64,000 nucleotides of DNA. Source: Chrysomallon squamiferum (lineage: Eukaryota; Animalia; Mollusca). The notes beneath the pieces are model-generated. The model did not search any database, was not told the DNA's origin, and saw nothing but the letters and a program-made list of their open reading frames with translations. A program made the translations under genes and the position numbers. This document shows, piece after piece, positions 8,384 through 64,000 of this stretch (its first letter is position 1; the number at the start of each line of letters is the position of its first letter). Location: NCBI GenBank assembly GCA_012295275.1, contig CM022679.1, forward strand, positions 24,304,001 to 24,368,000, given 5' to 3'.

Positions 8384-10099
8384 TTAAAAAAGAAAAGAAA
8401 CTATTATGTACAATTACGTAACTTTTTATAAACATATTCAAAACAGCAAAGAAGTTTGAATCTCATTTTCCAACTTTTTTTTCACTGCACAAGAAATTAA
8501 TGATTAAGAAAATAATAACAACAACAATAATAGTAATAAATAATATTATTAATAAATAAATAAGAATAATAATACAAGACTAAATCTTTTTTAGATTACT
8601 TTCATATTTATTTCTATTTATCTCTGCATTTGATATTTAAACTAATAATAAACATTTTACATTTAGCACAATGTCTTTTTATGTGAATATTTTTATGCTG
8701 CTTCACAAATGAATTGTGTAGTGATCTTTACACACAACATTTAACTGTTCAATGTAATTTAAGGCTATAAAGGTAAATAAACACAAACTGCAATGAAATG
8801 GATTCTCACTTATAAAACATTATGTACAAACATATTTTAAGTCTTACAACTTTCAAGCTATATGTTTGTGAAAAACATTTTATTTTATTATTTTTATTTT
8901 TTTCCCCCACAAAGATAACATTTACCGTATATACTTGTAGTTTTTCGATGTGTAAAGAACAAAATGTCATAAGTCGACTGTAAATTCCAGGCACCGTCAC
9001 TTTTTAGACCAGTGTGATTTGCCATGAAAAACGTTTTCCTACTGTAACATAACTTGCACGACACTGTAACTCACAACATTTAATCGTAAATGCATGTTTA
9101 CTATAGCCTCTGTATCATAAATAGTATCTCTTTAATGTAATAGGTCTAACATGGAGACCTAATGAATATTTTTCTATGTTTAAAAATGTGTCGGTATTTT
9201 GAATTGCAAATTTCACAAATTTTTACAATTAAACAAGGTTTTTCATGAAATTAGGACCGATATTTAGCATTTGGCTAATGTGTTTGTTCCTAGAAATTGC
9301 AAGACGCCGTAAGGCATAACGCCGTTTTTTCTCGAAAATGTATTTTTGTCATTAACAAAATCTCATGTTTTAAAAGATTTTTGGTTTTAATTTAATTTTT
9401 CAAAATTTTTTATACAAAAATTTTTTTTTAAAAGCTGAAAAACATTATTTTAGATGCATCCCTTAGCAAAAACAGTCAAAATGGCGACTCTTCACAACAT
9501 AAAAAGTTACCTCATAAGTCGAAAAATATTACCTTAATATAGTCTCCCAAAATTGTTATACAAAAGAATTTCGACATTTTTTGAACTAAAAGTCATTTTG
9601 AACAAACCTTTTCCACAAGTTTTTAAACGTTTTTTTTCTTATTAACCTTCTAATGAATATTTTTTTTTAAAAAATTTTTTACAAATTTTGTTTATTGGTT
9701 TTTCATATATGCATTCTTAATTATTTGTTCAAAATGCATGTTTATTTCAAACTTGTCCAACAAATCTCACATCTATAGATCATATAGCATCATGCTCCCT
9801 AATCTTTAGTGTTCATTGCAATTTTCTGGAGAAAATAATAAAAATTAAAATTATTTTATCATGAGCCAGAGTGCACAATACTGGTTTAGCTAGGCTGCTT
9901 TGAAACTTTCCTCTGTTCTAATTTATTAGTAGGATACTAATAGAGGTCCAGTTTTATTTATTTAAAACTGTTTTCACGACTAAGTTACATTAATTTTATT
10001 ATTATAAGATAACAATTTCTATCTCACATTTCTTTGCTAAATATATTAATTTAATTTGCTGTCATAACACTAGCCTTCTAATGCTAACATAAGACATTT

Positions 10100-10240
10100 T
10101 TGTGACATTTATTCCCGCAAAAAGTATATTTTGTTTCAGGTGTTTTTATTGGATCACTATATTCCGATTTATCCAATCACAATTAGTTTCTTTTCGTTAT
10201 TTGATAAATGAAAACAACATGGTGGCCATTGCTACATGTT
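10100..10240 (+). promoter_or_regulatory. IAP copy A promoter block (TTCCCGC E2F-like, ATTGG/CCAAT boxes, ATGGTGGC YY1-like)
   Basis: Motif cluster about 100-210 bp upstream of ATG 10321; homologous blocks at ~21740, ~37000 and ~59840. Confidence 0.5.
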
Positions 10241-10320
10241 GACAATTTTGTTAGGATTTACGTTCTTGATTCTTCAAAACTGTAGGTATTTGACTGGGAG
10301 TTTTAATTGCAAATCTAGAA

Positions 10321-11398
10321 ATGGATACTTTTGTTTATAATGAGATGAGAGATGAAGCGAAGAGACTCGTGTCTTTTCAGCAGTACCCCATTTTATATCC
10401 AGAAGATGAAGAAAGAACAGGTTATTATTCGCCACTGAAGCTGTCAAACGCCGGGTTTTTCCGAGAGCCTGGTGCTTCTTCAGATGAAGTGACATGCTTT
10501 GCCTGCGGAATTAAATATAGTGGATGGAGCGGCGAATCTCCAATGGCTGTTCACAGGATTCTAAATCCTGACTGCCAGTTTCTGAATGAAGAGGGAGAAG
10601 ACGTTGAAGAGAGACTACCATCAACACCAAATAATCTCGAACGAATGTCAAGTAATCCTGCAGTGAGGCGACGTTTGTTTGAGGAGTCAGAAGAACCAGG
10701 CAGTCCTGTTCATCGTGATCAACAGCAGACGCTTCTACCAAAATATAAACCAGTGTATGGTGGCTATAACATGCTATTTGAGAGTCACAGGCTGCTGACT
10801 TTTACAAATCCAAATAACCGACAATCAGAACAGTGGGCTGAAAATGGTTTTATTTTTCTAGAAGAGAATGGTATGGTGAAGTGTGTTTTCTGTGGTATAG
10901 AAATTTGCTTTGAAAATGAGGAACCTGTCATAGAAATTCATCGACTGGTTTCTGAGAACTGTCCGATTGTAAGATACATTGATGTGGGTAACATCTCAAG
11001 AGAACTGGAACATTCAGTGAAGTCGAAGCAAATGAATCTAAATACAGACATAAATACACAGAGATCAGTGGCTTATTTACATCCACAGTTTGAAGATGAA
11101 GATGTCAGGAAGAAGACTTTTGAATATTGGCCATGTTTGCCTCAGACAGAGGAGCAGTTGGTGGAAGCAGGATTTTACTTCACTGGTAAATATTTATGTA
11201 CAGTTATTACCAAGTTTACATCATACAGACATCTGTTATTATTAACTACCTGAACTAACTTTATTATTATTATTATTATTTTGTTTTCCTATCAACATCT
11301 TTAAACCAATTACATTTTGATTACTGTATTCATTGGTGTGAAAATGAGTCACTAAATCACTAATCTGTTTAGTTTCAACAATTGTGAAGAGAATAATG

Positions 11399-11438
<40 letters not shown>

Positions 11439-12768: not shown

Positions 12769-12834
<66 letters not shown>

Positions 12835-15084
12835 TCAGATTCTTACTGTGTCTGATCCTCCTAAGGAAGGTATGAATATTTGCTAAAACTTTTGTTATAC
12901 TGTTTTTCACTCATTTGTAACAAAATAAATCTGTATTAACAAAAAAAAATATGCAAAACCTCCCCAAAAAAAAAAAAAAACAAAAAAAAAAAAATCCACC
13001 TAAAACAAAATCGTACTAATACTACTAACATATTTTTTTTTTTTTTTTATATTTAAAAATTTCTTTTGTCATGCACTTTAAATAGAAAATTAAGGATACA
13101 AATGCCATTCAGTGTGTTTGTTCATGGATGAAAGTTAACAAAGAGGAGGTTACTCTGAGTGCTGTAGTCTATAAATAAAATGTAAATTATGCCATTGTTG
13201 TATTTCTAATAATCACTGTGTTCATCATTAACTGACATATTTATTAGTATCTTACTGTATTAAGAACTAAGACAGTTTTAATAACAACAGTTCACATTAA
13301 TTCTTATTTCTGTTCTGCAGGTCCAGTCAGTGAGGAAGGTCCAGTGCACACAGTTAGACCAGGAAAACCACACCTGGATATGTCAGCCATTGCAGCAGCC
13401 ATGGAATGTAATTACAGCATTGAACAAATTCGTGAAGCCATCCTTACATTTTTCTTTTCGTCCCGTGAGTCCAGTGATGTAGATAAATCACATACAAGCA
13501 ACCACAGCTGTTTTTTCTTTATTAACAGTGAAATGCATCTTCTCCCAAAGATTCAAGAAATTTACAAATTTTGAAATCCTCTTCTAATAATAGTATTATT
13601 ATTATTACTTGTATATAAATAGTTCTTATTACAAACTGTTTGTCCAATATGAACCATCCAATGAAATTAAATTGTTCTTAAATAAATAAATATATGGTAC
13701 TATGTAAACAATATATTTTAAATTTTGATATTCAGTATTTATATGTATAATAATTTGTTATTTTATTTAAGGTGGTCTCTACCCTAATGAAACATTATTG
13801 CTGGGATTGCTGCAAGCAGCTGATAAAAATTTTGATATGGTTAGAAAGAACAAAGAAGATCTTAGAAAGAACAAAGAAGATCTTAGAAAAACAGATGGTG
13901 CACTGCAGAATACTTTCCAGCAGCTGCAGAGAAAGGATGGAGAACTGCAGAGAGAGAGAGAAGAGTTAGAGAGAAAAGAAATAGAATTACAGAGAAAGGA
14001 ACTTGAGGCTCGAGCAGCTCAGATTAAACTTCACAGAGAACAGCAGACTCACTTGGCTTTGGCTGAGGGTCAGGCAGCAGTCATACGTAGACATGTCCAG
14101 GAGATTAGAAACAGAGAACAGCAGTACCAGCAACAACTACAGCAGAGAGATCAGTTACTACAGCAGAGAGATCAACATTACCAGCAACAACTACAGCAGA
14201 GAGATCAGTTACTGTACATTGCACATCAGCAGCTTGACAACCAGACAGAACAGCTGAACAACAGACAGCAGATTCAAAATAACTTGACTGAGATGATCAG
14301 ACGTCTGGCAAATGAGCTGCAGAGACTGGGTCGAGATGCTCGAGGTTTGAAACATTTAATGATTTGATTATTGTTTTGTACACATACATAAAAAAACATT
14401 TTTATTATTTTTATACAATATCAATTTTTGTGTTAAAATGGATGATTAACTATTATGTAGCAAACTCGTTGATGATAGATTTATTTAAATGTGGGATGTT
14501 CATTATTTTTATCATGTTACAAGAAGAGTAAGTCTTAAAGATTATCTGAATTAGATTTTCCCTGAACTCTGTTAATAACTATTTTGGTATATACACATGC
14601 ACAATTATTATTATTTTTTTGTTTATGTCAAACTTTTTAAAATGGACTACTGACTAATGACAAATATTAATTTTAATATTTATAAGATCGCATATAATTA
14701 TATGTAAAAATATCAAATTCACAGTAATTTAAAAAAAATAATAACCATTTAAAGTTACTGTTACCAAATTTCATCTACTTTGGTTCTTATTTTATTTTTT
14801 TAATTTATTTTTTTAATTTATTGTATAGAAAATAACTAATAGTTGTTTATGTCATAATCATTTTTCTGTTTTCAGATATACCAGATGACAACTCAGATGA
14901 TGGTTCTTCAACACCTCCAGGTGTTCCTAGATGTAAAGTTTGTCTGTCAGAAGATGTAAATGTTCTATTCAGACCTTGTCGACACGTTTGTTGTGGAGCC
15001 CAGTGTGCACCTCAGTTTGTAAATGAAGCATGTCCAGTCTGTCGTACAGTTGTACAGGAGTATGAGCTTGTCTTCATATCATAA
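10321..15084 (+). CDS. IAP/BIRC family E3 ligase copy A: 3xBIR-UBA-coiled coil-RING. Exons 10321-11185, 11984-12148, 12839-12869, 13321-13464, 13772-14344, 14876-15084. 661 aa if the extra C near 12073 is removed, otherwise it stops at 12084.
   Basis: BIR1 RLVSF..AGF..CFAC..H..C; BIR2 RLLTF..NGF..CVFC..H..C; BIR3 RKKTFEYWP..AGFYFTG|CSDKVVCFACG..PWVEHAR; UBA-like AAMECNYSIEQIREAI; RING CKVC..PCRH..CPVCR ending VFIS. All introns are GT/AG and phase-compatible after the 1-bp correction. Confidence 0.88.
12771..12833 (+). repeat. (ATT)n microsatellite directly upstream of the micro-exon acceptor
   Basis: Pure ATT run ending at tttcag 12838. Confidence 0.95.
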
Positions 15085-21310: not shown

Positions 21311-21996
21311 TAATACTGTATTCTTGAATATTTCATGTGTCTGAAAATGAGTCCTACAATCTGCACAGTTAACTTTTAACCCCATTTATTATTAGGGCAG
21401 GGGATCTATGTTAGGTTTCTTATTTCAATGAACACTATGTCATACATTTCTAAATATGTATCAGAAACCTAATAACACTGTCTAGTTACAATGCAAATGT
21501 CAGCATATATCACTTTGTTTATTTTCTAATTTACTATTGATATATTTATAAATGATCTTGTATTATTACTGCCGATCTTGAAAACTTTTATTTTACTTTA
21601 TTATAACCGTTATGATAACCGTTTCTGTCTGACATTTCTTTGCTTAATTTCCTATTTTTCTAATAATTATTTATGTATCTACCTGATTCAAAGTTTTCAT
21701 TTAATTTCGTTCTAAAGCTAACCATAATAGATTATTTGATTCCCGCAAAGAAATATATTTTGTTTCAGCTGTTTTTATGGACAGCTGAACTCCAACCGGA
21801 ATTTATTTCTTCTCATTCTTCGGAATGACTAATAAATGACCAGAAGCCATTCGTACTGCAATAAATGCTGTTCTTAAATCGTTAATTTTAAATAGAAAGT
21901 GCTTATGAGCTTCCTGACAGTTGCTGACTGTTGATGGGTGTTTCGAAATATTCTATTCATATGTAGAACGAAGTTGTTTCCCTTGCAAATATGAAA

Positions 21997-22036
<40 letters not shown>

Positions 22037-22084
22037 GTCTATACACTATTCGTACTGCAAACGATATTGTTTTTAACTTCCTGA

Positions 22085-22384
22085 ATGTTGCTGACGGTTC
22101 TCATCGCTGTTCGGTTAGTGACGTCGAATCACGTGAAGATTAATATGGATGGAAATCCACAATCGTCGGCGCTTTCTTTACATCCAGAGTCTGAAAAAGA
22201 AGATGTCAGAAAAAAGAATGTTGAATGTTTTGTGGAAACAGGTTATTAGTAACTACCTCAGCTAACTTTATTATTATTATTATTATTATTTTGTTTTCCT
22301 GCTACTAATGTTAAATCTCTAATATGAAACTGAAAGAAGGAAAATGTTGACAATACAAACTGTAATACTTCATTCTGTTAAAGA

Positions 22385-22452: not shown

Positions 22453-25400
22453 CGTATAATACGTATATTACTTACTCATCAAATACTTTAAATAGTATAG
22501 GTTTAATTTGATATAAAGATGCACACACATACATACATATGTATACTTAATGTTTTTCTATTTATGGATGTATAGACAGCAAAATCCAATGATTACATGC
22601 ATGTGGATACATTACTGAAAACATAAATCAATACACATAACCAGAAATGAATACCAAGTTTTTATATGTTTACATATCCATTTTCCAAAGTTGCCAGAAG
22701 TTATTCAATCCATACTGAAATTTTAATAACTTATTAGCACTAGATCAGTCATGGGCAAACTGCAGCCTGCCTGAGTTCACAAGGAAAATAACATAATTTT
22801 ATAACATGAGTCTGTTTTATATCTACTAATATACTAAAACAAATGTAATTTTTTTTATTAAAACAGTTCCTGAAGTAAATGAAAATGAAAAAATTCTTAA
22901 AATAAACTCGTAAAAACACAAAATCGCATAAATTAGTACCTGCATCCCATGTGAGGATGAACCATATCTCATCTGGCCTGCTTCTCTAAACAGGTTGCCC
23001 ATGCCTGCAGTAGATATTTTAGATCATTAGTACAATTCATTTTCTTATAGCTTATAATCTTTGATTACCATGTTTGTTCACAGTTGAGCAGATAGGATCA
23101 GAGGTTTACACATGCTTTCAAAACCTATCATCATTACTGTCATCTGGGCTATTTTTGCCTCATTTACAATGTCATCATCCATCATTTCTGTTCAGAATGG
23201 AATAGGGTTGTCCAGACTGATACAGTCCTGCATGGTGCATTGTGTCAGTCCATGTGACATTAGTGTAGATAAAGCAATGTCATTTCAAAAGCAAAGTTTT
23301 ATTGCAGCCTGTATGAAATAGAGATGACTACGGCAGGAATATTTCTTTACATTTAATCAATAACCCATGTTTCTTTATTTACCAAGTATAACAATAGCAT
23401 AACCATTCCAGCACTTGAAGTTTTCAAATGCTAATTTTTCTTAAGTCAGTATAAAATGAATTTGAGAAATAGTTTTTTTTACTGCTCTACATTTGTGAAA
23501 ATATCTGTCTGAATTGTTAAAGTTTGAATTTTATTTCAAGGCTGATTTTCATTTATTTTTTATTTTATATTTTTTTTTGTTTTATCTCCTAACAAAATTC
23601 TGCACACTGATCAAGAATTCACCTGATTTATTCTAACAACTGTAATTTTCCTTCACAACTGACTATATTTTCTTATCTTTAATGACATGTGTATATATAT
23701 ATATGTGCATGTGTAATTACACATATACACCTATATACATGGATTATCATGATAATGTTAGGCTAAAGAAAAGAAAAAAAGAAATATTGGTATTACTTAA
23801 GCAAAAGATAAATGAATAGACAAGAATGTTTTGTTTACTGTAATTCATATTGTGTTTATGTTGGTGTTTTACTATTCTAGTGCACACTACATTTTTTCAT
23901 AATCATCAGTAATTGCTAATTTATTTTTAATGTATTCAGATAAAGGTGTGGAGGAGTCCAGTCAGTCATCTAAATGTCAGTTGGTCAGAGAGGAAAAAGG
24001 GGAGGAGTTCACTAAGCAAACTCCTCAAATGACACAGGTATATTCATTAGTAGATTAATTTGGACTCTATTAGTGTTAGTAAATAAGTTGTTGATATTCT
24101 GTGGCATATATTTTGAATAAAACTGTTAACATATTAAAATTATCACACAACAAAATTAATAAAATGAAATGCAGTTACCTTGAGGTTGTCTCAGCAGATT
24201 TATGTATGAAGTGCTGTCATATAATTTATTGTTTATTTATTGCATTTTCCATTTGTCAATAATCAAACAGGGATCCATGCAATGTCAGTATGTATTTAAT
24301 GTGTAGAAACCAAAAAAACCACAAAAACCTGAATATTGTGGTATTATTATTATTATTATTATTATGATTCTTGTTATTTCAGGTGCCTACAGTGTCTGAT
24401 GCACCTGAAGAAGGTATGAATGTTTATTAAATGGTTTTCATTCACTTCAAAATAATTCTGCATTACAGAGCTCCAGAAAAAATCCCCAACAAAAGCATAA
24501 TAACTTGTTTTTTAGATTTATTATCTGTTTTGTAGATTGAAATAGTTAAAGACACAAATGGACATCTTTGTGTGTGTGTGTAAAGAGAAAATTATGTTTC
24601 TTGGTCCATAAATAAAAAGTAATCTTGATCATTGTTACATTTCTGACAACCACAATCTTCATCATTTACTGTCACATAAATATTACTCTGTGACAGAATT
24701 AGTAATTAGTTTCATATTATTTCTGTTCTATTAATACATTTTTTTATAAATAGTTCTAGTTACAGACAGATTGTTTAATATTAAGCATCCAATGAAATTA
24801 AATTGTTTTTAAAATTTTGTTGTGGTATACAGTAAATTACATATTTTAAATGTTTTGTTAAAGTCCATGCACAGCAGAGTAGTTTACAGCAGTCAGAGAG
24901 AATGATTCAGAAACTTGGCAGAGAGATAGAAGAATTAAAGAAAGAACTTGAGAATCACAGAATGGTCCTAAAGATGTATGAGCAAGGACTACAAGAGGAA
25001 AATAAACAAGTGTTCACTAATATTCAAGGTTTGAAATATTTTATGATTTCATTATTAGTTATGTCGGAAACTAAAGATTTTATTTAATTTTGGATTTAAA
25101 ATTATTCTTACAATCTCAACTACTTACTACTATGGTTTAGACCATATATAGTGATTTATATCACAGCATTTAGTTGTGTCTGCAAAGTGAAGGTCAATGT
25201 TGCTAACTAAGACGTAGTAACACCCTCTGCCCTTAAACTGAGTTTCATGATGCTCATGTCTATGCATTTTCTAAATCTACTCTTACTATGGATTAAATCA
25301 TATATAGTTATTTATTCCATAGCACTGAGTTCTCTCTGTAGGTAGGAACAAAATGGTTTATAAATTGCATTGATATATCCATCCCTGATAGTCAAGACCT

Positions 25401-28400: not shown

Positions 28401-28924
28401 TTACTAAATTATACTGAAGGCAATTTTAACACAAAAGAACATTATTAGTTTTGTATTAACAGAAACTTTTTAAATGGACTGAATTTATTGGTAAATATTA
28501 AAATTAATCGTTTTAATATTCAGAAGAAGAAACATACCTCTCATATTATATATTGATAGTAAAATACTGAATAAAAATAGTAAATTTATTATGCTTTTTA
28601 CTCTTTTTTAAAACCATAAACTATTTATAAAGTTATTCTTACAAACTTTTATCTCCTTCTTCTATTATTTTATTTATTTATGGTATAAAAATAATAATAA
28701 TGTTTCTGTTTTCAGATATACCAGATGACAACTCAGATGATGGTTCTTCAACACCTCCAGGTGTGTCTAGATGTAAAGTTTGTAGGTCAGAAGATGTAAA
28801 TGTTGTATTCAAACCGTGTCAACATGCTTGTTGTGGAGCCCAGTGTGCACCTCAGTTTGTAAATGAAAGATGTCCAGTCTGTCGAGAAATTGTAGAGGAG
28901 TTTGAGACTGTCTTCATATCATAA
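22085..28924 (+). CDS. BIR-less IAP-derived coiled coil-RING protein, copy B. Exons 22085 (or 22145)-22241, 23940-24037, 24383-24413, 24864-25028, 26666-26739, 27064-27094, 27548-28324, 28716-28924 (513 or 493 aa).
   Basis: Each exon aligns to a copy A exon (LHPESEKEDVRKK vs LHPQFEDEDVRKK; CQLVREEKGEEF vs CQFVRQKKGVEF). All junctions are GT/AG with compatible phase and no stops. RING CKVC..PCQH..CPVCR..VFIS is intact. The 3' two exons are more certain than the 5' ones. Confidence 0.72.
22387..22450 (+). repeat. (TA)n microsatellite
   Basis: Direct reading. Confidence 0.95.
22746..23007. mobile_element. hAT-type MITE, same family as 21111-21237
   Basis: TIRs cagtcatgggcaa...ttgcccatgcctg; 8-bp TSD cactagat/cagtagat. 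The empty site cactagatgtacag is present in paralogous introns at ~42047 and ~43303. Confidence 0.85.
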
Positions 28925-44800: not shown

Positions 44801-47800
44801 ATTGATGTGTGAAAGAAATAAAGTGCTGGAGTTATCGTTCGATGATTTCACAGCAGCAGGAATTGTTTGCTGCCTTTATTTCACTTAGGAGGCAATTGCT
44901 GCATCTGCATGTTAACAATCTTGTTAGGATTTACCATTGAATTTTTGTCAGAACTTTATGTATTTAATGGACAGTTTTACTTGAAAACCTAAGAATGGAA
45001 AAGTTTATTAATAAGGAGATGAAAAATGAAGCAAAGATACTCAAATCTTTTCACCATAATCCCATTCAGTCTCCAGAAGATCAAGAAAGAAAAGTAATTA
45101 TTCACCAGTTAAGTAAATAAACTGATAAAGATGCACACACATACACACATGAATATGCAAATGGATTTATGGATTTATAAACAGCAAAATCCGATGATAC
45201 ATGCATATAGATACACTATAAAAACATAAATGAAGCACATAACCCAAAATGAATACCAAGTTCACACATTTTTGGAGATCCAAAGTTGCCAGAATATACT
45301 CTGTCCATACTGAAGTGTTAATAGCATTAGAAGTACAGTATAACTATTTAAAATGACATACATAAATAAACTATATTAACTCACTACAATTTAAAATCAG
45401 TATAATTCATTTTGGTAAATGTCATTATCAAGAAAGGTAGTGATAAAAAACTGTGTTTGCCTGGTTTCTTAAAGAAATTATCTTTGATTACACGCAGACT
45501 TATTGACATTTTATTAAAATATTCACAGTTCAACAGATAGCTTGGGAGGTTTGCACATACTTTTGTTATTATGGGACATTTTTACTTCATTTACAAAGTC
45601 GTGAACCATCATTTCTGTTCAAAATAGAATACTGCTGTCCAGACTGATACAGTCCTGCATGGTGCCTCGAGGCTGATTTTGTTTTGTTTTATCTCCTGGC
45701 AATATTCTGCACACTGATCATGAATTCTCTTGATTTGTTCTAACAGTTGTAATTTTCCTTCACAACTGACTACATTTTCTTATCTTTGATGGCGTGTGTA
45801 TATATGTATATGTGCATGTGTAACTACACATATATACATATACATGGATTATCATGATAATGTTAGGCTAAAGAAAAGAAAATAAGTATTGATATTATTT
45901 AGAAGCAAAAGATAAATCAGTGTTTTGCATACTATAACGCATATTATGTTTATGTTGGTGTTTTACTATTGTAGTGCACACTACATTTTTTTATAATCTT
46001 CAGTAATTGTTAATTTATTTTTACACAGGTTCTGATAAAGAAGTTCCTTCTGTGGGGAAATGCGTTGAAACATCTAAATGTCGATTTCACAGTCAGGAAA
46101 AAGGGGAGAACTCCACTGATGCGTTGGTATCCCTTCACTCGGATAAAAGTCAGTCTGCCGGAAAGGGAAAAGTAGACAAGTTCACTGAACAAGCACGTCG
46201 AACGGCACAGGTATAGGTATTAGTAAATTAATTGGACTCTGTGGTAAATATGTTGTTGATGTTCTGTGGTAGATATTTTGAATAAAATTGGTAACAAACA
46301 TATTAAAAATCATCAAATTTCACACAATGAAAAGATTAAAAAATAATTAACAGAGTTCAGCTCAGCAGATGGATGTGTAAAGTGGTGTTATATAATTTAT
46401 CATTTATTTATTGCATTTTCCATTTATCAGTAATCAAACAGTGAATATTCAATATGTTTTTAATGCACAGAAATAAACAAAAAAATATTTTTAACAAATG
46501 AATATTGCGGTATTATTATTATATTCATATTATTATTATGATTCTTGTTATTTCAGATGCCTGCAGAGTCTAATCCACATGAAGAAGGTATGAATGTTTA
46601 TTAATTGGTTTTCATTCACTTCTAAATAATTCTGCATTACAAAGCTCCAGAAAAAATCCCAAACAAAAGTATACTGACCTGTTTTTTAGATTTATTATCT
46701 GTTTTGTAGATTGAAATAGTTAAAGACACAAATGGACAGGTGTGTGTGTGTGAAGAGAAAATTGTTTCTTAGCCTATAAATAAAAAGTAATCTAGACCAT
46801 TGTTATATTTCTGACAACCACAGTCTGTCATTTACTGTGACATAATTAGTAATAAGTGTTCATATTATTTTTGTTCTATTAATACTTTTTTTATAAATAG
46901 TTTTAGTTACAGACTGATTATCTAATATTAACCATCAAATGAAATTAAATTGTTTTTAAATTTTGTTTATTAATTGGTTTTCATTCACTTCTAAATAAAT
47001 CTGCATTACAAAGCTCCAGAAAAAATCCCAAACAAAAGCATAATGACGTGTTTTTTAGATTTATTATCTGTTTTGCAGATTGAAATAGTTAAAGACACAA
47101 GTGGACATGTTTGTTTGTGTGTGTGTGTGTGTGAAGAAAAAATTGTTTAAAAGCAGTTCATATTTCTTATTTCTGTTTTACAGTGAATCAGGGAAAACCA
47201 AACCTGGATGTGTCAGCCATTGCACCAGAACAAATTTGTAAAGGTATCCTTACATTTTTCTTTTCATCTCATGTGTCCAGAAATATATATATAAATCACA
47301 TACAACAACAGCTATTTTTCCGTTATTAATAGTGAAATGCTTGTTCCGCATAGAGATAAAAGAAATATATAAATTTCCAAATCCTCTTCTGACAAATTAT
47401 AGCATTATTAATACTTTTTTATATAAATAGTTCTTCTTACAGACTGATTGTCTAATATTATCCATCCAATGAAATTAAATTCTTTTTATAAAAATGATAT
47501 CAATATAAGGTAAATAACACACATACACACATGAAATGCAAATGTATTTATGGATGTATAAACAGCAAAATCTGACAGGACATGCATATAGATATATTAT
47601 AAAACACATATTTGAAGCACATAACCAGAAATCAATGCCAATTTCATACATTTTAGGAGATCCAAAGTTGCTAGGCTGTATTCTGTCCATATTGAAGTGT
47701 TAATAGCACTAGATTTACAGCACAAATATTTAAAATATTTAATGCATAAAATTGTATTAAATCACGAAAATTTAAAATCATCAGTATAATTCATTTTGGG

Positions 47801-50800
47801 AAATGTCATTATCAAGAAAAGTTAGTGATGAAACACTGTTTTCCTGGTTTCTTAAAGAAATTATATTTGATTACAATGTCTGTAATTCCACGCAAACCTA
47901 TTAATATTTAGTTAAAATATTCACAGATAGCATGGGAGGTTTACAGATACTTGCAAAGCCTGTATTGTCATTATCAATGGTGTCATCTTTTGTCATTATG
48001 GGCCATTTTTCTTCATTTATAATGTCATCAACCAACATATCAGTTCAGAATGGAATATGGTTTTCTTAAGTCAGTATTATGGGACTATAAAATGACTTAG
48101 AGAAATAGAGGATTTTGACTTACCTACAGTGTTCAAATGTCATTATTATTGACTTGTATAGCAGCTCCTCACCTTTTAATTCTGTATATCGACGTTGTGA
48201 AAAAACCAAAGTCTGAATTATTTAGGTTTGAATTTTATTTCATGGCTGATTTTGATTTTATTATATATATTTTTTACTCATCTAGCTATATTGTGCACAC
48301 TAATTATGGATTCACCTCATGTATTCTAACAATTGGAATTTTCCTTCACAACTGACTTACATTTTCTTATCTTTAATGGCATGTCGGTATGTACTTGCAT
48401 ATGCATTTACATACTTGTCGGTATGGACTTACACATGTGTAATCATGATAATGTTAGGCTAAAGAGAAGAAATTTAAAAGAAATATTGATACTATTTAGA
48501 AGCAAAAGATAAATGAGTTGACAACGATGTTTTGTTTACTGTAACTCATATTATGTTTATGTTGGTGTTTTACTATTGTAGTGCACACTACATTTTTTTA
48601 TAATCTTCAGTAATTGTTCATTTATTTTTACACATGTTCTGGTAAAGAAGTTCCTTCTGTGGGGAAATCCGTTGTCGGAGAGAAAGAAGGGGAAAACTCC
48701 ACTGATCAAGTAGGTATAGAAATAAGTGCTGTGATATAAATTTCTCTATCTGGTCTAAGCCATATCAGCACCTAGTATTAGGAACTGCATAGACATTTGT
48801 GTCATGAAATTTGGTTTAACAGCAGCAGGGGTCTCACTAGGGGTGTGCCTGTAAGTTGCAGTTAGCAATATTGACCTTCATTTTACAGACAGAACTAAAT
48901 GCTGTGACATAAATCTGTATATGTGGTGTGAACCATATTAGTACCTAGTATTGTTAGGAACTGCATAGACATTTGTGTCATGAAATTCGGTTTAAGAGCA
49001 ACAGTGATTTCACTGGGGCTGTTCCTGTAAGTTGTCATTAGCTGTATTGACCTTCTTTTTATGCTGTGACATAAATCTCTTTAATTTAGATTAGAGTCTT
49101 GAAAATTTTTGACCGATTATTTTGTGTAGGTAATGTTCTTTCTGTTTATGTTCTTACATGTATCAGTAATTCTAATAAACTTTATTGCTGTGTATATGTT
49201 CTCACTAATTGATATATCAGAACTGCCACTTTAGAATAAACCATTATTTTTACTATTTGTTACCTTTTTCATGAGCAGATCATAGGCACATTCTTAATTT
49301 TCACCTTTGCTTCTCAGGTACCATTGTTTCTATAGGTTTTTTCATAATATTATAATACGTTGTTGCAATTCAGATATTTCTTCACTTTATTTTTGCAGTG
49401 AATGAAAAGTAGAAAATGTCAGCCATTTCTTGAAATTCCTTATCCTTTTTTTTTTTAACTTTTATATAAGAACAGTGTTCAAACAGTGATCAGTGAATAT
49501 TCAATATGTATTTAATGCATAGAAACAAAAAAACACACAAATCTGAATACTGAGGTATTATTATTATTATGATTCTTGTGATTTCAGAATCCTACAGTGC
49601 CTGGTCCACCTAAGAAAGGTATGAATGTTTATTAAATGGTTTTCACTCAAAAAACATACTGACATGTTTTTATATTTAAATTTATATATTACTGAAAACA
49701 TAAATCGAAACATATCACCAAAACGCTCATATATTTTTGGATATCCAAAATGAATTCAATCCATACTGAAGTGTTAATAGCTAGATGTACAGTAAAAATA
49801 TTTAAAATCACATACATAAATATTTAAAATCATTAAATACATTTTAGGAAATAACATCAGAAAGTTTAGTGATGGAAAGACTATGCCTGGTTTTCTAAAC
49901 AAATTATCTTTCATTACAGTGTCTGTACTTCCAAGCAAACTTATTAACATTCATAATTCAGCTGTTCTGTCTGTAATTCCACACTAACTTATTCACATTT
50001 TGTTAAAATATTCACAATTCAGCAGATAGCATGGGAAGTTTACACATGCTTGCAAAGCCTGTATTGTCATTATCATCACTGACATCGTTTGTCATTATGA
50101 GCCATTTTTACTTTATTTATAAAGATATGAACCATCATTTCTGTTCAAAATGGAACACGGTTTTCCATACTGATATGGTGCCTTGTGTCAGTCCATGTGA
50201 CATCAGTGTGGATAAAGCAATGTCATTTCAAAAGCAAAGTTTTGTTGCAGCCTCCATGAAATAGACATGACAAAGCCTGGCATATTTTTTTATATTTAAT
50301 CAGTAATCCATTTTTCTTTATTTACCAAGTAAAACAATAGCGTAACCATTCCAGCACTTCAAGTTTTCAAAAGCTAATTTTTCTTATGTCAGTATAAAAT
50401 GAATTTGAGAAATAGTTTTTTTTTTTACTTCTGTACATTTGTGAAAAAGATCTGTCTGAATTGTTGAATTTTATTTCGAGGCTGATTTTCATTTATTTTT
50501 GTTTTATTATCTCCTAGCAATATTCTGCACACTGATCATGAATTCTCTTGATTTGTTCTAACAGTTGTAATTTTCCTTCACAACTGACTACATTTTCTTA
50601 TCTTTGATGGCGTGTGTATATATGTATATGTGCATGTGTAACTACACATATACATATACATGGATTATCATGATAATGTTAGGCTAAAGAAAAGAAAATA
50701 AGTATTGATATTATTTAGAAGCAAAAGGTAAATCAGTGTTTTGCATACTATAACTCATATTATGTTTATGTTGGTGTTTTACTATTCTAGTGCACACTAC

Positions 50801-53800
50801 ATTTTTTTATAATCTTCAGTAATTGTTAATTTATTTTTACACAGGTCCTGATAAAGAAGTTCCTTCTGTGGGGAAATGCGTTGAAACATCTGAATGTCGA
50901 TTTCCTGTAGAGGAAGAAGGGGAGAACTCCACTGATGCATTGGTATCCCTTGACTCGGATAAAAGTCAGTCTGTCGAAGAGGGAAAAGGGGAGCAGTTCA
51001 TGGAACAAGCACGTCCAATGGAACAGGTATAGGTATTAGTAAATTAATTGGACCCTGTTACTGTTGGTAAATAAGTTGTTGATGTTCTGTGGTAGATATT
51101 TTGAATAAAATTGGTAACAAACATTAAAAATCATCAAATTTCACACAACAAAAATAATAAAAAATAATGAACAGAGTTCCAACTCAGCAGATAGATGTGT
51201 AAAGTGGTGTTATATAATTTATCATTTATTTATTGCATTTTCCATTTATCAATAATCAAACAGTGAATATTCAATATGTTTTTAACGCACAGAAATAAAC
51301 AAAAAAATATTTAAAAAAAAATGAATATTGCGGTATTATTATTATTATGATTCTTGTTATTTCAGATGCCCGCAGAGTCTAATGCACATGAAGAAGGTAT
51401 GAATGTTTATTAATTGGTTTTCATTCACTTCTAAGATCCAAAGTTTCCAGACTGTATTCTGTCCATACTGAAATATTTAAAATGACATACATAAATAAAT
51501 GTATTAACTCATTACAATTTAAAATCATCAGTATAATTTATTTTCGGAAATGTCATTAACAAGAAAAGTTAGTGATGAAAAACTGTTTTCCTGGTTTCTT
51601 AAAGAAATTATCTTTGGTTTCAGTGTCTGTAATTCCATGCAAACTTATTCACATTTTGTTAAAATATTCGCAGTTCAGCAGATAACATGGGAAGTTAACA
51701 CATGCTTGCAAAGCCTGTATTGTTGTTATCATTACTGACATCTTTTGTCATTATGGGCCATTTTTCTTCATTTACAATGTCATCAACCATCGTATCAGTT
51801 CAGAATGGAATATAGTTTTCCAGATTGATACAGTCTTGTTTGGTGCTTATGTCAATCCATTTGACATCAGTGTGGATATAAGAATGTCATTATTGGAACT
51901 GACTTCAAATTTTTGTTGCGGCCTGCAGGAAATAGAGGTGACGAAGCCAGGCATATTTCTCTACACTTAATCAATAACACATTATTCTTTATTTACTAAT
52001 GAAAACAACAGCGTTCCATTCCAGTACTTCACTTTTCAAAAGCTAATTTCTCTTAAGTCAGTATTATGGGAGTATAAAATGACTTAGAGAAATAGAGGAT
52101 TTTGACTTACCTACAATGTTCAAATGTCATTATTATTGACTTATATATTCAGTTCTGTATATCGAGGTTGTGAAAAAATCAAAGTCTGAATTATTAAGGT
52201 TTGAATTTTATTTCATGGCCGATATTGAATTTATTATATATATTTGTTAATCTCCAAGCTGTCTTCTGCACACAAATCATGGGTTCACCTGATGTATTAT
52301 AACAATTGGAATTTTCCTTTAAAACTTACCACAACTGACTTACATTTTCTTATCATTAATAGTTTTTTGTATAGGTATGAACATATGTAATTATACATAT
52401 ACGTACACATGTGTAATCATGATAATGTAAGGATAAACAAAAGAAAAAGGATTAACTGAATTTATTCAGAAGCAAAAGATAAATGAGTTGACAAGAATAT
52501 TAAGAACTATTACTTCTTTTCTGTTTGTTTTGTGAGTCCAATGATGTAGATAAATCACAAAAAAACCTCAGATGCTTTTTTTAAATTTATAATGTAATTC
52601 GTCTGTAGAACAAAAGAAAAAAGATATAAAATTTCCTCTGGAAATCCTCCACTAATAATACTTCAGATTTATTATTTCTTCTAATAAATATAGTTTTTAT
52701 TACAGATTGATTGTCTCATATGAAACATTCAGTGAACATAAATATATTTTTTATATAAATTATGTGGTATCAGATGATGTGTTTTAAATGCTTTGTTACA
52801 GCTGTAGATTCATGTTTATATGTTTAATTATTTATGATTTTTTATTTATTTAATCTCTGCCCTAACAAATCATTACCAGGATTGCTTCAAGCTACTGATA
52901 CAAATTTCAACATGGTTAGAAAGATCTTGGATGAAGATCTTAGAAAGAAGGATGAAGATATTAGAAAGAAGGATGAAGATCTTAGAAAGAAGGATGAAGA
53001 TCTTAGAAAGAAGGATGAAGAAAATCTGAGATATCGCCAACAACTAAATGAGAGAGAGATGCATTATCAGTGGCAATTAAATCAGATAAATATTTATCAT
53101 CAGCAGCAATTAAATGATATAAATGTGAATTGTGTGCAGTACCAACAACTACTAGTCATGAACATTCTGACTATTAATAATCAGTTAGAACATTTAAACA
53201 ATCAGGTACAAGAGCTGAACAACAGACAGCAAAGTCAAAATAACATGACTGAGATCATCATAGATCAAGCAAATGAGCTTCAAAGACTAAGACAAGGTAC
53301 TCGAGGTTTGAAATATTTAATGATTTGATTATTAGTTAAAACAAACTGATGATTTTATTTAATTGAGGAATTTTCATTATTTTTATTTTTATTTTTTTGT
53401 CATGCAGAGAAAAGAATGAGTCATAAAGAATGTTTAAATTGTATTTTTACTTAATTATATTGAAGACAGTTGTAACACAAAAGAACATTGTTATTATTTT
53501 TATATTAACAATTTATTGGTAAATATTAAAATTAGTTGTTTTATTATTGAGAAGATAAAATTGTAACTATTTGAAGAAGAAACATACCTGTCAAATTATC
53601 TATTGATAACATGACGTAAAATACTTTCCTCCGCTTTTTTTCTTATTTTATTTACTTATTTATATGTTTATTTATTTATTTATTTATTTTATAGAAAATA
53701 AATAATAGTTGTGTATATCATAATTTTACTTTTTTCAGATGGTGAATCTTCAACACCTCAAGATGTGTCTAGATGTAAAGTTTGTCTGTCAGAAAATGTA

Positions 53801-53920
53801 AATGTTATATTTGAACCATGTCGACATGCTTGTTGTGGAGTCACGTGTGCACTTCAGTTGACAAAATGTCCAATCTGTCGAAAAATTGTAAAGAAGTTGG
53901 AGACTGTCTTCCTATCATAA
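41801..53920 (+). CDS. BIR-less IAP-derived coiled coil-RING protein, copy C. Exons 41801-41876, 42763-42863, 43198-43216, 43692-44021, 46029-46210, 46557-46587, 47184-47243, [48648-48709, 49588-49618], 50845-51026, 51366-51396, 52880-53305, 53739-53920 (539 aa, or 570 aa with the bracketed pair). May instead be two genes, the second starting at 44995.
   Basis: All exons are homologous to copy A exons, GT/AG-bounded, phase-compatible and stop-free. Terminal RING CKVC..PCRH..CPICR..VFLS is intact. Connectivity across 44021-46029 is inferred. Confidence 0.6.
43704..43943 (+). repeat. Coding 21-bp minisatellite (about 11 units) encoding ELQETKE heptads
   Basis: Unit gaactacaggagacaaaggaa. Confidence 0.95.
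44995..45112 (+). other. Remnant or alternative first exon homologous to the IAP N-terminus
   Basis: MEKFINKEMKNEAKILKSFHHNPIQSPEDQERK vs MDTFVYNEMRDEAKRLVSFQQYPILYPEDEERT, with 5'UTR homology upstream. A phase-1 donor gtaaat is available at 45113. Confidence 0.55.
48720..49481 (-). repeat. Inverted duplication of ~40280-41130
   Basis: For example agagtcttgaaaattttt..ttttgtgtaggtaatgttctttctgtttatgttctta at 49093+ is the reverse complement of ~40665-40727. Confidence 0.9.
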
Positions 53921-59800: not shown

Positions 59801-60044
59801 TTATCTTGCCTTCTCAACATAATACATTTTGGTAACATTCATTCCCGCAAAAAGTAAATTTTGTTTCAGTTGTTTTTATTGGATCGCTATATACAGATTT
59901 ATCCAATCACAATTAGTTTCTTATTTGATAAATGAAAACAATATGGTGGCCATTGCTACATGTTGACAATTTTGTTAGGATTTACGTTCGTAATTCTTCA
60001 AAACTGTAGGTATTTAACTGGGAGTTTTAATTGCAAATCTAGAA

Positions 60045-60912
60045 ATGGATACTTTTGTCTATGATGAGATCAGAGATGAAGCGAAGAGACTCGTGTCTTT
60101 TCAGCAGTACCCCATTTTATATCCAGAAGATGAAAGAACAGGTTATTATTCGCCACTGAAGCTGTCAAACGCCGGATTTTTTCGAGAGCCTGGTGCTTCT
60201 TCAGATGAAGTGACATGCTTTGCCTGCGGAATTAAATATAGTGGATGGAGGGGCGAATCTCCAACGGCTGTTCACAGGATTCTAAATCCTGACTGCCAGT
60301 TTCTGAAAGAAGAAGGAGAAGAAGTTGAACATGAAGAGAGAATTCCATCAACACCAAATAATTGTGAACGAATGTCTGGTAATCCTGAAGTGAGGCGACG
60401 TTTGTTTGATGTGTCAGAAGAACCTGGCAGCCCTGTCCATCGTGATCAACAGCAGACACTTCTACCAAAATATAAACCAGTGTATGGTGACTATAACATG
60501 CTGTTTGAGAGTCACAGGTTGCTGACTTTCACAGATCCAAATAACCGACAGTCAGAAGTGTGGGCTGAAAATGGTTTTGTTTTTCTGCAAGAGAGTGGTT
60601 TGGTGAAGTGTGTTTTCTGTGGTGTAGAAATTTGCTTTGAAAATGAGGAACCTGTCATAGAAATTCATCGACAGGTTTCTGAGAATTGTCCATTTGTGAG
60701 ATACATTGATGTAGGTAACATCTCAAGAGAACTGGAACATTCAGTGAAGTCGAAGCAAATGAATCTGAATACAGACGTAAATACACAGAGATCAGTGGCT
60801 TATTTACATCCACAGTTTGAAGATGAAGAAGACAGGAAGAAGACTTTTGAATATTGGCCATGTTTGCCTCAGACAGAGGAGCAGTTGGTGGAAGCAGGAT
60901 TTTACTTCACTG
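60045..60912 (+). CDS. IAP/BIRC copy D, coding exon 1 (BIR1, BIR2, first half of BIR3); the rest lies beyond the window
   Basis: Close paralog of 10321-11185 with the same donor actg|gtaaat at 60913. Confidence 0.9.
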
Positions 60913-62142
60913 GTAAATACTTGTGTACAGTTTCAATATGTTTACATCACATAGACATTTTTTATTATTTTTAGTTATTCTATAAACAGAATTGAACTGA
61001 TTGCATCTTGATAACAGAATTCATTGACAATGAATTCATCTTGCTAATGTATTCAGTTTTAATCCTTGTCAGATTAATTTTATAAAATAAACAAATGTTC
61101 GAAAATATAAACATTTATCTCATTGTAATACTTGTGTCTATTGGTTGTGCAGATATATGCATATAAACAATAACTTACTCATCAAATAAAGTCCAACTTC
61201 GATAATTCTAACTTGATGGGGAAGGCAAAATAGTTTGATATATTTACTATAATATTGCTAGACAAGTAAAGTATGTTTGACGCTGCAATAAACACATTCT
61301 TATGGATTTGGTAAATTAGCGAAATAACAAAATCAGTAAGACACAACTCAGATTAATTTGACATGAGTGCAAATACATACATACACATGTATATGCAAAT
61401 GTATTTATTGATGTATAAAACAGCAAACAGACTATATCACATTATCTAAACAACATAAATTGAAACATATAATCAGAAATAAATACCAAGTTAATCTATT
61501 TCTTTATTTCCAGTCTTGGAGGAACATATATGAGTGTTAATAGCACCAGATGTGCAGTACAAGATTATGAAAATCTTAAACAACAAAACTAGTTTAAATC
61601 AATAATATTTGGATAGATCAAGGTTGTCAAAGTTTGAATTATTAAAGTTTCACTGTAAGGTGTAATAGTAATTTTATTTCACAGCTGATTTTGATTTTCT
61701 TTTATCCACTAGCTGAATCCTTTACACTAATCATGGATTCAACTAATGTATTCTAACAATTGTAATTGTGCTTCACAACTTAACATAACTAACTGTTTTC
61801 TTTAATGTGTGTGTGTGTTGTGTTTGTACAATATATATTGTATAAACAACACAACACACACATCTCTGTGTACATGTATGTACACTTTGGAGTAATAATG
61901 ATAGGTTAATACTAGCAGATAAACAAATAAAAAATAAAAATACAAACTGAATATTTTTAAAAGCAAATGATAAATGCACTGATAAGAATGTTTTGCTTAC
62001 TGTAACTCTCAGTGTATAATGTTCATAATAGCAGTTGGTGGAAGCAGGATTTTACTTCACTGGTAAATACTTACGTACTGTTATTATCATGTTTACATCA
62101 CACAGATATCTGTCTGTTATTATTAACTACCCCAATTAACTT

Positions 62143-64000
62143 TAGGGTCATTCCGTGTCAAATCACCCAATGGTTTAAACCCGACCGTCTCAGATTTTTA
62201 TGAAACTTGGTATACTTGTTGACTGGGATCCCACAGCATAAAATCTGAAATTTTAGCTCAATCAGACCAGTGGTGTGGGAGATACGGCCCACCGAATTTT
62301 GAGATTTTTGCCAAAAATGGGTGTGACCACCAACCTTAGAACCCTCCTATCTCAGGAACTACTGGGCCAATCTTCATAAAATTGGTATTGTTAGAAAGGC
62401 AAAATGACAAGGATACCAAATCTGCCATTTTTGTTTAGTTTGGAAAATATTGGAGTACCTTGACCTTTTGACCTTTGCTATGACCTTGAAATTGACCGTG
62501 TGGATCACGTGATCTTGAGATGACCTTTATTGAAATTTAATCTCCCACATGTTAACTAAAACATATAAAAAGTTTCCTGGGTGTAATATTTTTGTTTAGC
62601 CAAATATAGATTTAAAAAATGCACATACATGAAAATAACACCTTTTCAGCCATTAACATCTGATTAACTAAAACCTGAATGATCAATTCTGGATGCTAGG
62701 AATCACCATCTCTCTTGATCATCGAGTAAGACATTGTAGGCCTACCTGTATGCATAAAGTTCACATATAAAAGATTCCTGGGTATAATATTTTTTGTTTA
62801 GCCATAATAGAGATTTAAAAAAATGCATACCTGCATGGATGATTGATACAATGCATTACAATGTACATTTTCTCTGAGACTAAAAACTCATCTTTGGAGT
62901 TAAAACCCACCTGACATGTCTGAAGGAATGCCTGAAAGATATGAAAAGATGCCAAATGGCATGACATGTTCTACACAATCAGGCTGAAAGGGTTAACAGG
63001 AAGTGATGCTTCAGGCAGGTCAGGAATTCCTTTAGATCCCCTGGTGCAATCCCCATTGAGCACATGGCAATTAGAAGTTTAAGAAAAAGAAGTTTCTTCA
63101 TCTGCATTTCTTTGACAATTTGAAGCTTTTTAACTTGGACACAATGTCAGATGTTGATATATAAACAATATTTTTATTTCATAAAACCTATTAAGTAATT
63201 TTATCATGTCATGTGGGCAGATTTGGTTTTGAACAAGGTTTCAGTCAACAACAGTACAACCCAGTCTGAAATCAGATGTCATCAAGTGATGTACTGCATA
63301 ATGTATTTGTACACCCAGTCTTCGGCACAGAGTATGAACAAGGTCTACTTCACCTTAATAAACTGTGATTTATACTTGAGAAGATTGACATAAATGCCCA
63401 AGACTTGTGGGCCTTTGGCAATAACACATGTACTCTGCTGCCATTTTATGACCTGCTTAACTTTACTGAAACGGTTTCAGCACTGACTTTGTTCTATTGA
63501 ATTGAAGGTGCAGGCCAATAATGAAAATCCTTATTTCTTCCAAGGCTAACTGCAGCTTTAACTCTCCTGAAAATGTGTGTTATCAACACCATCATATCAA
63601 AAAGGAGTTGTTGTTTAGTATGGAAAACTGAGGAAGTCGAACTCCTCACTCTTTGAAGTGGGATCAAACACGGGACATCAAGAGTATCATGAACAAGAAC
63701 TTTTCATCAAATTTTCAACATTGCAGAAAAACTGTTGTGATCCCCTTAATCGCCACCCTGAGCAAGCACGCACTAGATCTTTAAGAATTGTTAGCATGGG
63801 CACTTACAAATGCTTAGTAAATCCTCCAAAGACACTAGTGCCAGGAGACAAGTTGTGCTGTGACTGTCTGATTACCCTTCAGAAATCAAAGGTCCTGCAG
63901 AGGATGGCTTTAGTATGGGTGGTATTACAATGGGAGAATTTGGTGATAACTTGCCAGACAAACAACTGGTTGTTGTTTCCCAAGAAAAGGATTTTGATTT
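62143..64000. mobile_element. DNA transposon inserted in copy D intron 1 (possibly Academ-like), with decayed minus-strand coding remnants; incomplete
   Basis: Homology to the copy A intron stops at aacttt, then tagggtcattccgtgtcaaatcaccc begins. Higher GC, with internal direct repeats at ~62550-62640 and ~62760-62830. Confidence 0.6.

What the first reader, a model, noticed from the sequence alone, without database searches (positions are those of the whole stretch)
9800..62150. IAP tandem array producing BIR-less coiled coil-RING E3 ligases between full-BIR paralogs
Seen: four homologous units. A and D keep BIR domains. B and C have lost every BIR zinc-binding motif and all or most of the UBA, yet keep open frames across 8-13 exons and an intact RING with the CPxCR arginine and the F-x-S tail. 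Known: IAP RINGs dimerise through this C-terminal tail, and mollusc IAP families are expanded. Inference: B and C are a derived family of E3s, or RING/coiled-coil heterodimer regulators of the neighbouring IAPs, and BIR-based surveys would miss them.
Basis: partly seen in the sequence, partly recalled or inferred. Interest (0 to 1): 0.85.

Follow-up and report, generated by a model that had tools for sequence, protein, structure and literature searches.

The report
Snail IAP copies lacking BIR domains
In a snail genome, two of four side-by-side copies of a cell-death-regulating IAP gene have lost the BIR domains that define the family but keep open frames and the ubiquitin-ligase RING, one of them is spliced in RNA, and they likely act as ligases that would pair with and tune the parent-type IAP.

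Summary
The array is real: four head-to-tail copies of a gastropod BIR3-UBA-coiled coil-RING IAP (closest: Gigantopelta aegis, 58-60%). B (8 exons, 493 aa) and C (11-13 exons, 539-570 aa, model less sure) have no BIR zinc motif and keep a RING with the linchpin Arg and F-x-S tail. Two B junctions are spliced in two RNA runs of one study; C could not be tested. A model supports an A-B RING dimer, by likeness to solved IAP dimers. Verdict: young, fast-evolving BIR-less IAP derivatives, probably functional E3s; regulation of neighbours is untested. New variant of a known kind, and a real blind spot of BIR-defined surveys. Interest 0.45.

The parts
10321..11185 (+). Unit A coding exon 1: BIR1, BIR2, first half of BIR3
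   Evidence: PF00653 E 3e-28; 58-60% to G. aegis P0001/P0002
11984..12148 (+). Unit A exon 2: rest of BIR3; one extra base at about 12073 shifts the frame (allele or assembly error, not tested with reads)
   Evidence: (tblastn HSPs 11965-12072 and 12074-12148)
12839..13464 (+). Unit A exons 3 (12839-12869) and 4 (13321-13464; UBA-like helices, with a second possible donor after 13407)
   Evidence: isoform pair P0001/P0161
13772..14344 (+). Unit A exon 5: end of UBA-like region and coiled coil
   Evidence: heptad period, 0 of 500 shuffles; its end is joined to a RING exon in RNA run X9
14876..15084 (+). Unit A exon 6: acidic linker, RING, F-x-S tail, stop
21724..22241 (+). Unit B 5' end: conserved upstream element, decayed BIR exon, predicted coding exon 1 (22145-22241, remnant of the BIR3 start, new weak donor). 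Not tested with reads
23940..25028 (+). Unit B module 1: exons 2 (23940-24037, BIR3 remnant without ligands), 3 (24383-24413), 4 (24864-25028, short coiled coil)
   Evidence: exon 4-5 joint in RNA runs X8 and X9 (table 5c)
26666..28324 (+). Unit B module 2: exons 5 (26666-26739), 6 (27064-27094), 7 (27548-28324, long coiled coil with 21-nt repeats)
28716..28924 (+). Unit B exon 8: RING, F-x-S tail, stop
   Evidence: intron 28325-28715 spliced GT..AG in X8 and X9, in 0 of 2 DNA runs
36984..37109 (+). Unit C copy of the conserved upstream element and start of the 5' untranslated part
41801..44021 (+). Unit C module 1 (predicted): 41801-41876 (remnant of the BIR1 start), 42763-42863, 43198-43216, 43692-44021 (coiled coil of 11 x 21-nt repeats)
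   Evidence: not tested with reads
44905..51396 (+). Unit C further modules (predicted): dead exon-1 copy 44905-45113; exons 46029-46210, 46557-46587, 47184-47243 (UBA remnant), optional 48648-48709 and 49588-49618, 50845-51026, 51366-51396
   Evidence: not tested with reads
52880..53920 (+). Unit C last coiled-coil exon (52880-53305, cryptic acceptor) and RING exon (53739-53920)
   Evidence: not tested with reads
60045..60912 (+). Unit D coding exon 1: BIR1, BIR2, first half of BIR3; dN/dS 0.36 against A
62030..62144 (+). Second copy of the 3' end of D exon 1, where exon 2 should begin; unrelated sequence follows to the window end

Best explanation
B and C are tandem duplicates of a gastropod BIR3-UBA-coiled coil-RING IAP that have lost all BIR zinc sites yet keep open frames and the RING core, B is spliced in RNA, and they are likely dimeric ubiquitin ligases that would pair with the parent-type IAP through the RING tail and change its turnover. 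Shown: loss of BIRs by deletion in exons 1-2, rebuilding of the N-terminal half by repeated copying of the exon 2-5 module, two spliced junctions of B. Inferred: B and C are sisters that arose after the split from G. aegis; selection keeps the frame and the RING fold while surfaces change fast. Predicted: A-B RING dimer. Untested: E2 binding, ubiquitin transfer, mixed dimers in cells, effect on apoptosis or immune signalling, expression of C. With no BIR a B/C subunit cannot bind caspases or IAP antagonists in the usual way, so a mixed dimer would carry half the substrate sites and an extra active RING; by analogy with the cIAP1 RING this would most likely lower the parent IAP's level.
For: Splicing: B intron 28325-28715 removed in RNA runs X8 and X9 (GT..AG) and in 0 of 2 DNA runs; exon 4-5 joint in both RNA runs. 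Frame: 9 of 9 exon copies that changed length keep their length class mod 3 (3 of them are repeat-built coiled-coil exons); neutral simulation leaves B open in 19 of 3000 and C in 18 of 3000 runs at 0.04 changes per site without indels, 0-2 of 3000 at 0.07. RING core: of 16 positions invariant in 10 gastropod sequences C changed 0 (other positions 18 of 32, p=0.0001) and B changed 1 (10 of 34, p=0.06); zinc ligands, V21, P53, R56, F66 all kept. Asymmetry: against G. aegis 0 derived changes in A versus 7 in B and 13 in C. Model: A-RING with B-RING scored 0.61, best of 3 controls 0.24; mark reached by 51 of 78 solved and 2 of 108 mismatched pairs (eukaryotes 39 of 65 and 2 of 126); runs agree in at least 91% of contacts, partner pLDDT at least 78; F66 packs on His36 of the partner. 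Like complexes are solved, so the pass shows likeness only. An A-type exon 5-6 junction is present in X9, the same run that holds B. Precedent: RING-mediated homo- and heterodimers (PMC3972657, passage); cIAP1 RING degrades other RING-bearing IAPs (PMC3789170, passage).
Against: Whole-exon dN/dS of the RING exon is 1.09 (A-B), 1.98 (A-C), 2.78 (B-C) on only 3-5.5 synonymous differences, against 0.36 for A-D exon 1; 10 of the 11 listed coding variants of B change the residue, which does not differ from neutral expectation (p=0.47; 119 rows not shown). B's core test is not significant and B has L23R next to the second cysteine. Only 2 of 7 B junctions were displayed, both runs are one study, contigs not reads, with lower intronic cover too; the transcribed B haplotype differs from the window's by about 1% and in-frame indels. 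C is untested. The partner is in doubt: A is frameshifted as assembled and D is cut off. Three of four residue changes shared by B and C (17, 37, 64) lie in the predicted dimer interface, which could mean they avoid A rather than bind it.
Confidence: 0.42

Rival explanations
1. B and C are expressed duplicates under relaxed selection, on the way to loss; the RING core and frame reflect constraint early after duplication or weak selection against truncated products, with no current role.
For: dN/dS about 1 or above in the RING exon and in C's duplicated exons (1.06); 10 of 11 listed B variants nonsynonymous; dead exon copies, a lost acceptor and repeat insertions in C; young age (dS 0.07-0.35); A and D also damaged; no counterpart found in G. 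aegis.
Against: No stop or frameshift in 1482 nt (B) and 1620 nt (C) in spite of many indels; 19 and 18 of 3000 neutral runs stay open at best; C core 0 of 16 changed versus 18 of 32; coding length differences seen in RNA contigs of B are 3, 21 and 105 nt, all in frame.
Confidence: 0.25
2. B and C are functional homodimeric coiled coil-RING E3s that have left the IAP circuit and pick new substrates through their rebuilt coiled coils and acidic linkers, possibly under positive selection (for example in immunity or symbiont control).
For: All RING change lies on the B/C side; B-C dN/dS 2.78 with pN>=pS in 98% of bootstraps; shared B/C changes sit in the predicted interface; new repeat-built coiled coils; C's duplicated 182-nt exon differs at 19 of 181 sites against 19 of 690 in its flanking introns.
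Against: Few synonymous sites make the ratios unstable; synonymous sites in the duplicated C exon are raised as well (dS 0.12); the last coiled-coil segment and RING tail remain alignable to A; no substrate is known.
Confidence: 0.25
3. B or C are not separate BIR-less genes: their exons are spliced onto the BIR exon of A (phases are compatible), or the array is partly mis-assembled.
For: B exon 1 has a weak new donor and lay outside the stretch laid; A exon 1 ends in phase 1 like the B exon 2 acceptor; A's own exon 2 is frameshifted.
Against: Each unit has its own copy of the upstream element and spacer; A has its own RING exon, stop and poly(A) signals, and an A-type exon 5-6 junction is transcribed; DNA contigs of two studies match B's sequence in pieces of up to 1.5 kb.
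Confidence: 0.08

Closest known systems
Gastropod BIR3-UBA-coiled coil-RING IAP clade (G. aegis XP_041364314.1, XP_041364744.1; Haliotis, Patella, Babylonia, Biomphalaria relatives)
   Same: A is 58-60% identical over exon 1 and collinear over the whole length; same coiled coil, acidic linker and H-x2-C-G-x2-C RING.
   Different: B and C lack all three BIRs and most of the UBA, repeat the exon 2-5 module, and their RINGs evolve much faster.
cIAP1/cIAP2/XIAP/BIRC7 dimeric RINGs (PDB 6HPR, 3EB5, 4AUQ, 5O6T) and RING-mediated cross-degradation of IAPs
   Same: Best solved matches of the B RING; CKVC, P-C-x-H, CP-x-CR and tail Phe kept; predicted tail-mediated dimer.
   Different: No BIR or CARD; an acidic proline linker, not a helix, directly precedes the RING; a long coiled coil lies upstream; fifth ligand spacing differs.
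BIR-less ligases with an IAP-type RING (MYLIP/IDOL, CGRRF1; RNF34/RFFL, MUL1, LRSAM1, MDM2/MDMX recalled)
   Same: IAP-like C-terminal RING without BIR; dimer-dependent activity in several (recalled).
   Different: Those are ancient separate families with their own substrate domains; B and C are recent descendants of a true IAP, with exon-by-exon traces of the lost BIRs.
Partly BIR-reduced IAPs (BIRC8/ILP-2, recalled; single-BIR mollusc and aphid IAPs in PMC13159474)
   Same: [quoted passage not shown]
   Different: Those keep at least one BIR, which is the survey's entry rule; B and C keep none.

Membership tests
IAP/BIRC family (B and C) | At least one BIR domain (C-x2-C-x16-H-x6-C zinc site) | tested here: not met
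   No PF00653 hit in the 12 B/C exons scanned; six-frame clade profile finds only a ligand-free remnant at iE 0.04.
IAP/BIRC family (B and C) | Descent from an IAP gene (homology of exons, introns, RING) | tested here: met
   Exon and intron homology to A; A, B, C group together, support 83/89, drawn open.
IAP/BIRC family (A) | BIR domains in one frame with UBA and RING | tested here: inconclusive
   Three BIRs present but +1 base in BIR3 as assembled; not checked with reads.
IAP/BIRC family (D) | Complete gene with BIR3 and RING | tested here: inconclusive
   Exon 1 intact, exons 2-6 absent up to the window end; no genome held.
IAP-type dimeric RING E3 | C3HC4 zinc ligands | tested here: met
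   PF13920 above cut-off in A, B, C; seven canonical ligands plus C39 in place of the usual C40, a clade trait.
IAP-type dimeric RING E3 | Linchpin Arg after the last Cys and aromatic C-terminal tail (residue roles recalled) | tested here: met
   R56 and F66-x-S68 in A, B, C; alignment to cIAP1/2.
IAP-type dimeric RING E3 | RING-RING dimer through the tail | tested here: inconclusive
   Predicted only: 0.61 versus best control 0.24, by likeness to solved dimers.
IAP-type dimeric RING E3 | E2-dependent ubiquitin transfer | not testable with these tools
   Needs an in vitro assay.
Functional protein-coding gene (B) | Spliced transcript with open frame | tested here: met
   2 junctions displayed in 2 RNA runs of one study; 5' end not tested.
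Functional protein-coding gene (C) | Spliced transcript with open frame | not tested
   Frame open in the models; no RNA result was obtained for C.
Processed or unprocessed pseudogene (B, C) | Stops or frameshifts, uniform neutral change | tested here: not met
   No lesion in the models; core spared in C; but whole-exon dN/dS is 1 or above.

The most novel reading that the evidence does not exclude
An IAP gene has produced its own antagonists: BIR-less coiled coil-RING copies under positive selection that dimerise with and degrade parent-type IAPs. Such BIR-less offshoots would be a recurrent, hidden layer of the expanded mollusc IAP arrays, missed because every survey requires a BIR (short BIR-less models of the same clade exist in Nucella, Lottia and Plakobranchus, though they may be split gene models).
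Probability: 0.2. Interest if true: 0.75.

Novelty: new variant of a known kind. Interest (0 to 1): 0.45.

Why it matters
Large surveys of IAP evolution admit only proteins with a BIR (passages seen in PMC13159474 and PMC8917759), so IAP descendants that lost every BIR are uncounted. This locus shows one such descendant spliced and a second with an open frame, with the steps of BIR loss readable exon by exon. If they act on the parent IAP they would be a self-derived brake on an expanded anti-apoptotic family; if they have new substrates they show how a new E3 is born. It is so far one locus in one lineage, and domain loss after tandem duplication is in itself common.

Tried and rejected
No whole genome is held, so D's remainder and other copies could not be sought. 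Word-index search with the B RING exon: 0 of 13 candidates. With the G. aegis coiled-coil end plus RING: 2 of 44, both BIR-bearing, lengths 359-1143 only, and even Haliotis was missed, so absence of BIR-less relatives is weak. Profile search (best 150 of 3100 listed): top hit P0014 is a repeat artefact; three BIR-less short models of the clade (P0125 Nucella, P0027 Lottia, P0026 Plakobranchus) were not counted as support, since P0125 starts inside BIR3 and a Plakobranchus model lacking the RING exists (P0008), pointing to split models. My loose BIR regex also hits RINGs and was discarded in favour of Pfam and the clade profile. The tree did not resolve A, B, C; sisterhood of B and C rests on shared residues and flanking DNA (8-10% B-C versus 16-28% A-B). 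Non-coding divergences from global alignments are rough. No RNA result was obtained for unit C or for A exon 2. Rejected: 'coiled coil is new in B/C' (ancestral); 'RING under plain purifying selection' (dN/dS 1 or above); 'dN/dS near 1 proves pseudogene' (core spared, frame kept). Earlier scan notes: nothing found. Silke 2005 and Cheung 2008 are not held; known only through review passages. No supplements were read; those of PMC13159474 may list discarded BIR-less hits.
Full report
Setting. The window is 28% GC animal DNA without N. The nearest proteins to unit A exon 1 are all from gastropods (13 hits among 924 candidates), led by Gigantopelta aegis at 58-60% and Haliotis at 40-42%. I infer a gastropod related to G. 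aegis. No genome is held.

Anatomy. Self-blastn shows four head-to-tail units with homologous upstream regions and spacers. A has six coding exons (10321-15084): BIR1-BIR2-BIR3, a UBA-like segment, a coiled coil, an acidic linker and a RING, collinear with G. aegis P0002. As assembled, A has one extra base at about 12073, just after the BIR3 histidine, which gives a stop near codon 324; without that base the frame is 661 aa. D has an intact exon 1 (60045-60912), then an intron that breaks off shortly before exon 2, a second copy of the exon 1 end (62030-62144) and unrelated DNA; no exon 2-6 or RING lies within the window. So 'full-BIR paralogs' is not shown for either neighbour.

B and C. B has 8 exons with GT-AG ends and a 493-aa frame; C has an open 11-exon model (539 aa) and an open 13-exon model (570 aa). 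No BIR was found in the 12 B and C exons scanned with Pfam (the shortest exons were not scanned), and a clade profile over all six frames of the window finds only a ligand-free remnant (iE 0.04). The history is readable: B keeps the 3' stub of the BIR exon, C the 5' stub; the zinc-ligand core of exon 2 is deleted in every copy; the exon 2-5 module is repeated twice in B and about four times in C. The coiled coil is ancestral: A and its relatives have it, though B and C rebuilt theirs from 21-nt repeats (heptad period beats 493-500 of 500 shuffles). The RING keeps its ligands, R56 and the F-x-S tail. It has C39-G40 where most IAP RINGs have C40; this is shared with G. aegis and Haliotis. C's model is less sure: one acceptor is cryptic, one is shifted, and the first exon has no clear acceptor.

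Expression. Nine public runs hold the B stretch, two of them RNA from one study. Laid on 22470-30700 (4 runs, all contigs), both RNA runs skip intron 28325-28715 with GT..AG ends and neither DNA run does; both also join exon 4 to exon 5, with the exon end 3 nt shorter. That is 2 of 7 predicted junctions; 18 joints were not displayed and exon 1 lay outside the stretch. Introns have lower RNA cover too. One X9 contig ends in the exact end of A exon 5 joined to a RING exon, so an A-type gene is spliced in the same run. Another X9 contig matches B exon 7 at about 97% but carries an A-like UBA end before 27562 that the window lacks: a second B haplotype or an extra copy. No RNA result was obtained for C or for A's frameshift.

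Selection. Ten of 11 listed coding variants in B are replacements, none a stop (not different from neutral, p=0.47). But the change is not uniform. Against G. aegis, 0 derived residues fall on A versus 7 on B and 13 on C (binomial p=0.016 and 0.0002). At 16 positions invariant in 10 gastropod RINGs, C changed 0 (18 of 32 elsewhere, p=0.0001) and B changed 1 (10 of 34, p=0.06); with a looser 27-position set p is 0.0025 and 0.16. Nine of nine exon copies that changed length kept their class mod 3, and a crude neutral simulation leaves the frames open in at most 19 of 3000 runs (C's model was hand-picked, B's uses every homologous exon copy). The pattern fits kept fold and frame with relaxed or diversifying surfaces; the data cannot separate those two.

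Mechanism. The B RING's closest solved matches are cIAP1, cIAP2, BIRC7, MYLIP and XIAP. A model of A-RING with B-RING scored 0.61 against a best control of 0.24 (3 controls; mark reached by 51 of 78 solved and 2 of 108 mismatched pairs, on eukaryotes 39 of 65 and 2 of 126; contacts agree at least 91%, partner pLDDT at least 78), with the tail Phe on the partner's His36. Like dimers are solved and close cousins pass, so this shows the surface is of the dimer type, not that A and B bind. Reviews state that IAP RINGs form homo- and heterodimers (PMC3972657, passage) and that the cIAP1 RING degrades other RING-bearing IAPs (PMC3789170, passage; the primary papers were not held). I therefore commit, at 0.42, to BIR-less dimeric ligases that pair with the parent-type IAP and alter its turnover. 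Decay under relaxed selection (0.25) and an independent ligase with new substrates (0.25) are close rivals; three of four residue changes shared by B and C lie in the predicted interface, which could favour the latter.

Novelty. B and C fail the defining BIR test, so they are IAP descendants and not IAPs. Passages of PMC13159474 report frequent BIR or RING loss after duplication but admit only proteins with at least one BIR, noting just two Bruce-like proteins without BIR; PMC8917759 prunes BIR-less proteins as well. Six searches of the held library (listings only, apart from the passages cited) showed no description of BIR-less coiled coil-RING IAP offshoots in molluscs; subscription papers and supplements were not seen. 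No BIR-less counterpart turned up in G. aegis (2 of 44 candidates, weak search). Three short BIR-less models of the clade in other gastropods may be split annotations. Verdict: real, young, a new variant of a known kind; interest 0.45.

Noticed in passing
window 13401-13415 (A exon 4); P0001 vs P0161, P0005, P0007, P0022, P0032: A second splice donor inside the UBA-like exon would remove its middle helix. G. aegis has an annotated isoform pair differing by exactly this piece, and Haliotis, Bradybaena, Patella and Babylonia models lack the same piece: likely a conserved alternative splice that switches the UBA off across gastropods.
   Followed up: partly
window 45667-46625 vs 50476-51434: In C's recent internal duplication the 182-nt exon differs at 19 of 181 sites but the flanking introns at only 19 of 690 (Fisher p=4e-5); synonymous sites are raised too (dS 0.12). 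Diversifying selection, intron conversion or exon swap; unexplained.
   Followed up: partly
window 14876-15084, 28716-28924, 53739-53920: The usual fifth RING zinc cysteine is Gly, with Cys one residue earlier, in A, B, C, three G. aegis genes and Haliotis; other gastropods of the clade mostly have CCC here.
   Followed up: partly
window about 10110-10140, 21739-21769, 36999-37029, 59840-59870: All four units keep a short element (TT[CT]CCGCAAA, then TTTGTTTCAG) upstream of the first coding exon; it could be a splice acceptor region or an E2F-like site with an initiator (motif names recalled).
   Followed up: no
window 27562 (RNA run X9, record 28): A B-like contig carries an A-like UBA end that the window's B lacks: a second haplotype or an extra copy outside the window.
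   Followed up: partly
window 3113-4892: Exons of a DHHC palmitoyltransferase gene on the + strand upstream of the array (PF01529 E 1e-15).
   Followed up: partly
window 40377-41060 and 48718-49445; related pieces at 25119-25445: Two inverted copies (86%) of an element with 150-176 bp tandem units are inserted in C, one right behind the damaged exon at 48648-48709; likely a non-autonomous transposon.
   Followed up: no
window 35580-36070: A GC-rich island with two strong splice-donor-like sites lies between B and C; possibly a promoter exon of C or a transposon fragment.
   Followed up: no
P0125 and P0162 (Nucella lapillus, locus tags five apart on one contig): Two over 90% alike members of this clade with one BIR and none; may be a parallel tandem array with BIR loss, or partial models.
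   Followed up: partly
window 10321-11185, 60045-60912: BIR1 and BIR2 of this clade have 15 rather than 16 residues between the second Cys and the His; BIR3 has the usual 16.
   Followed up: no
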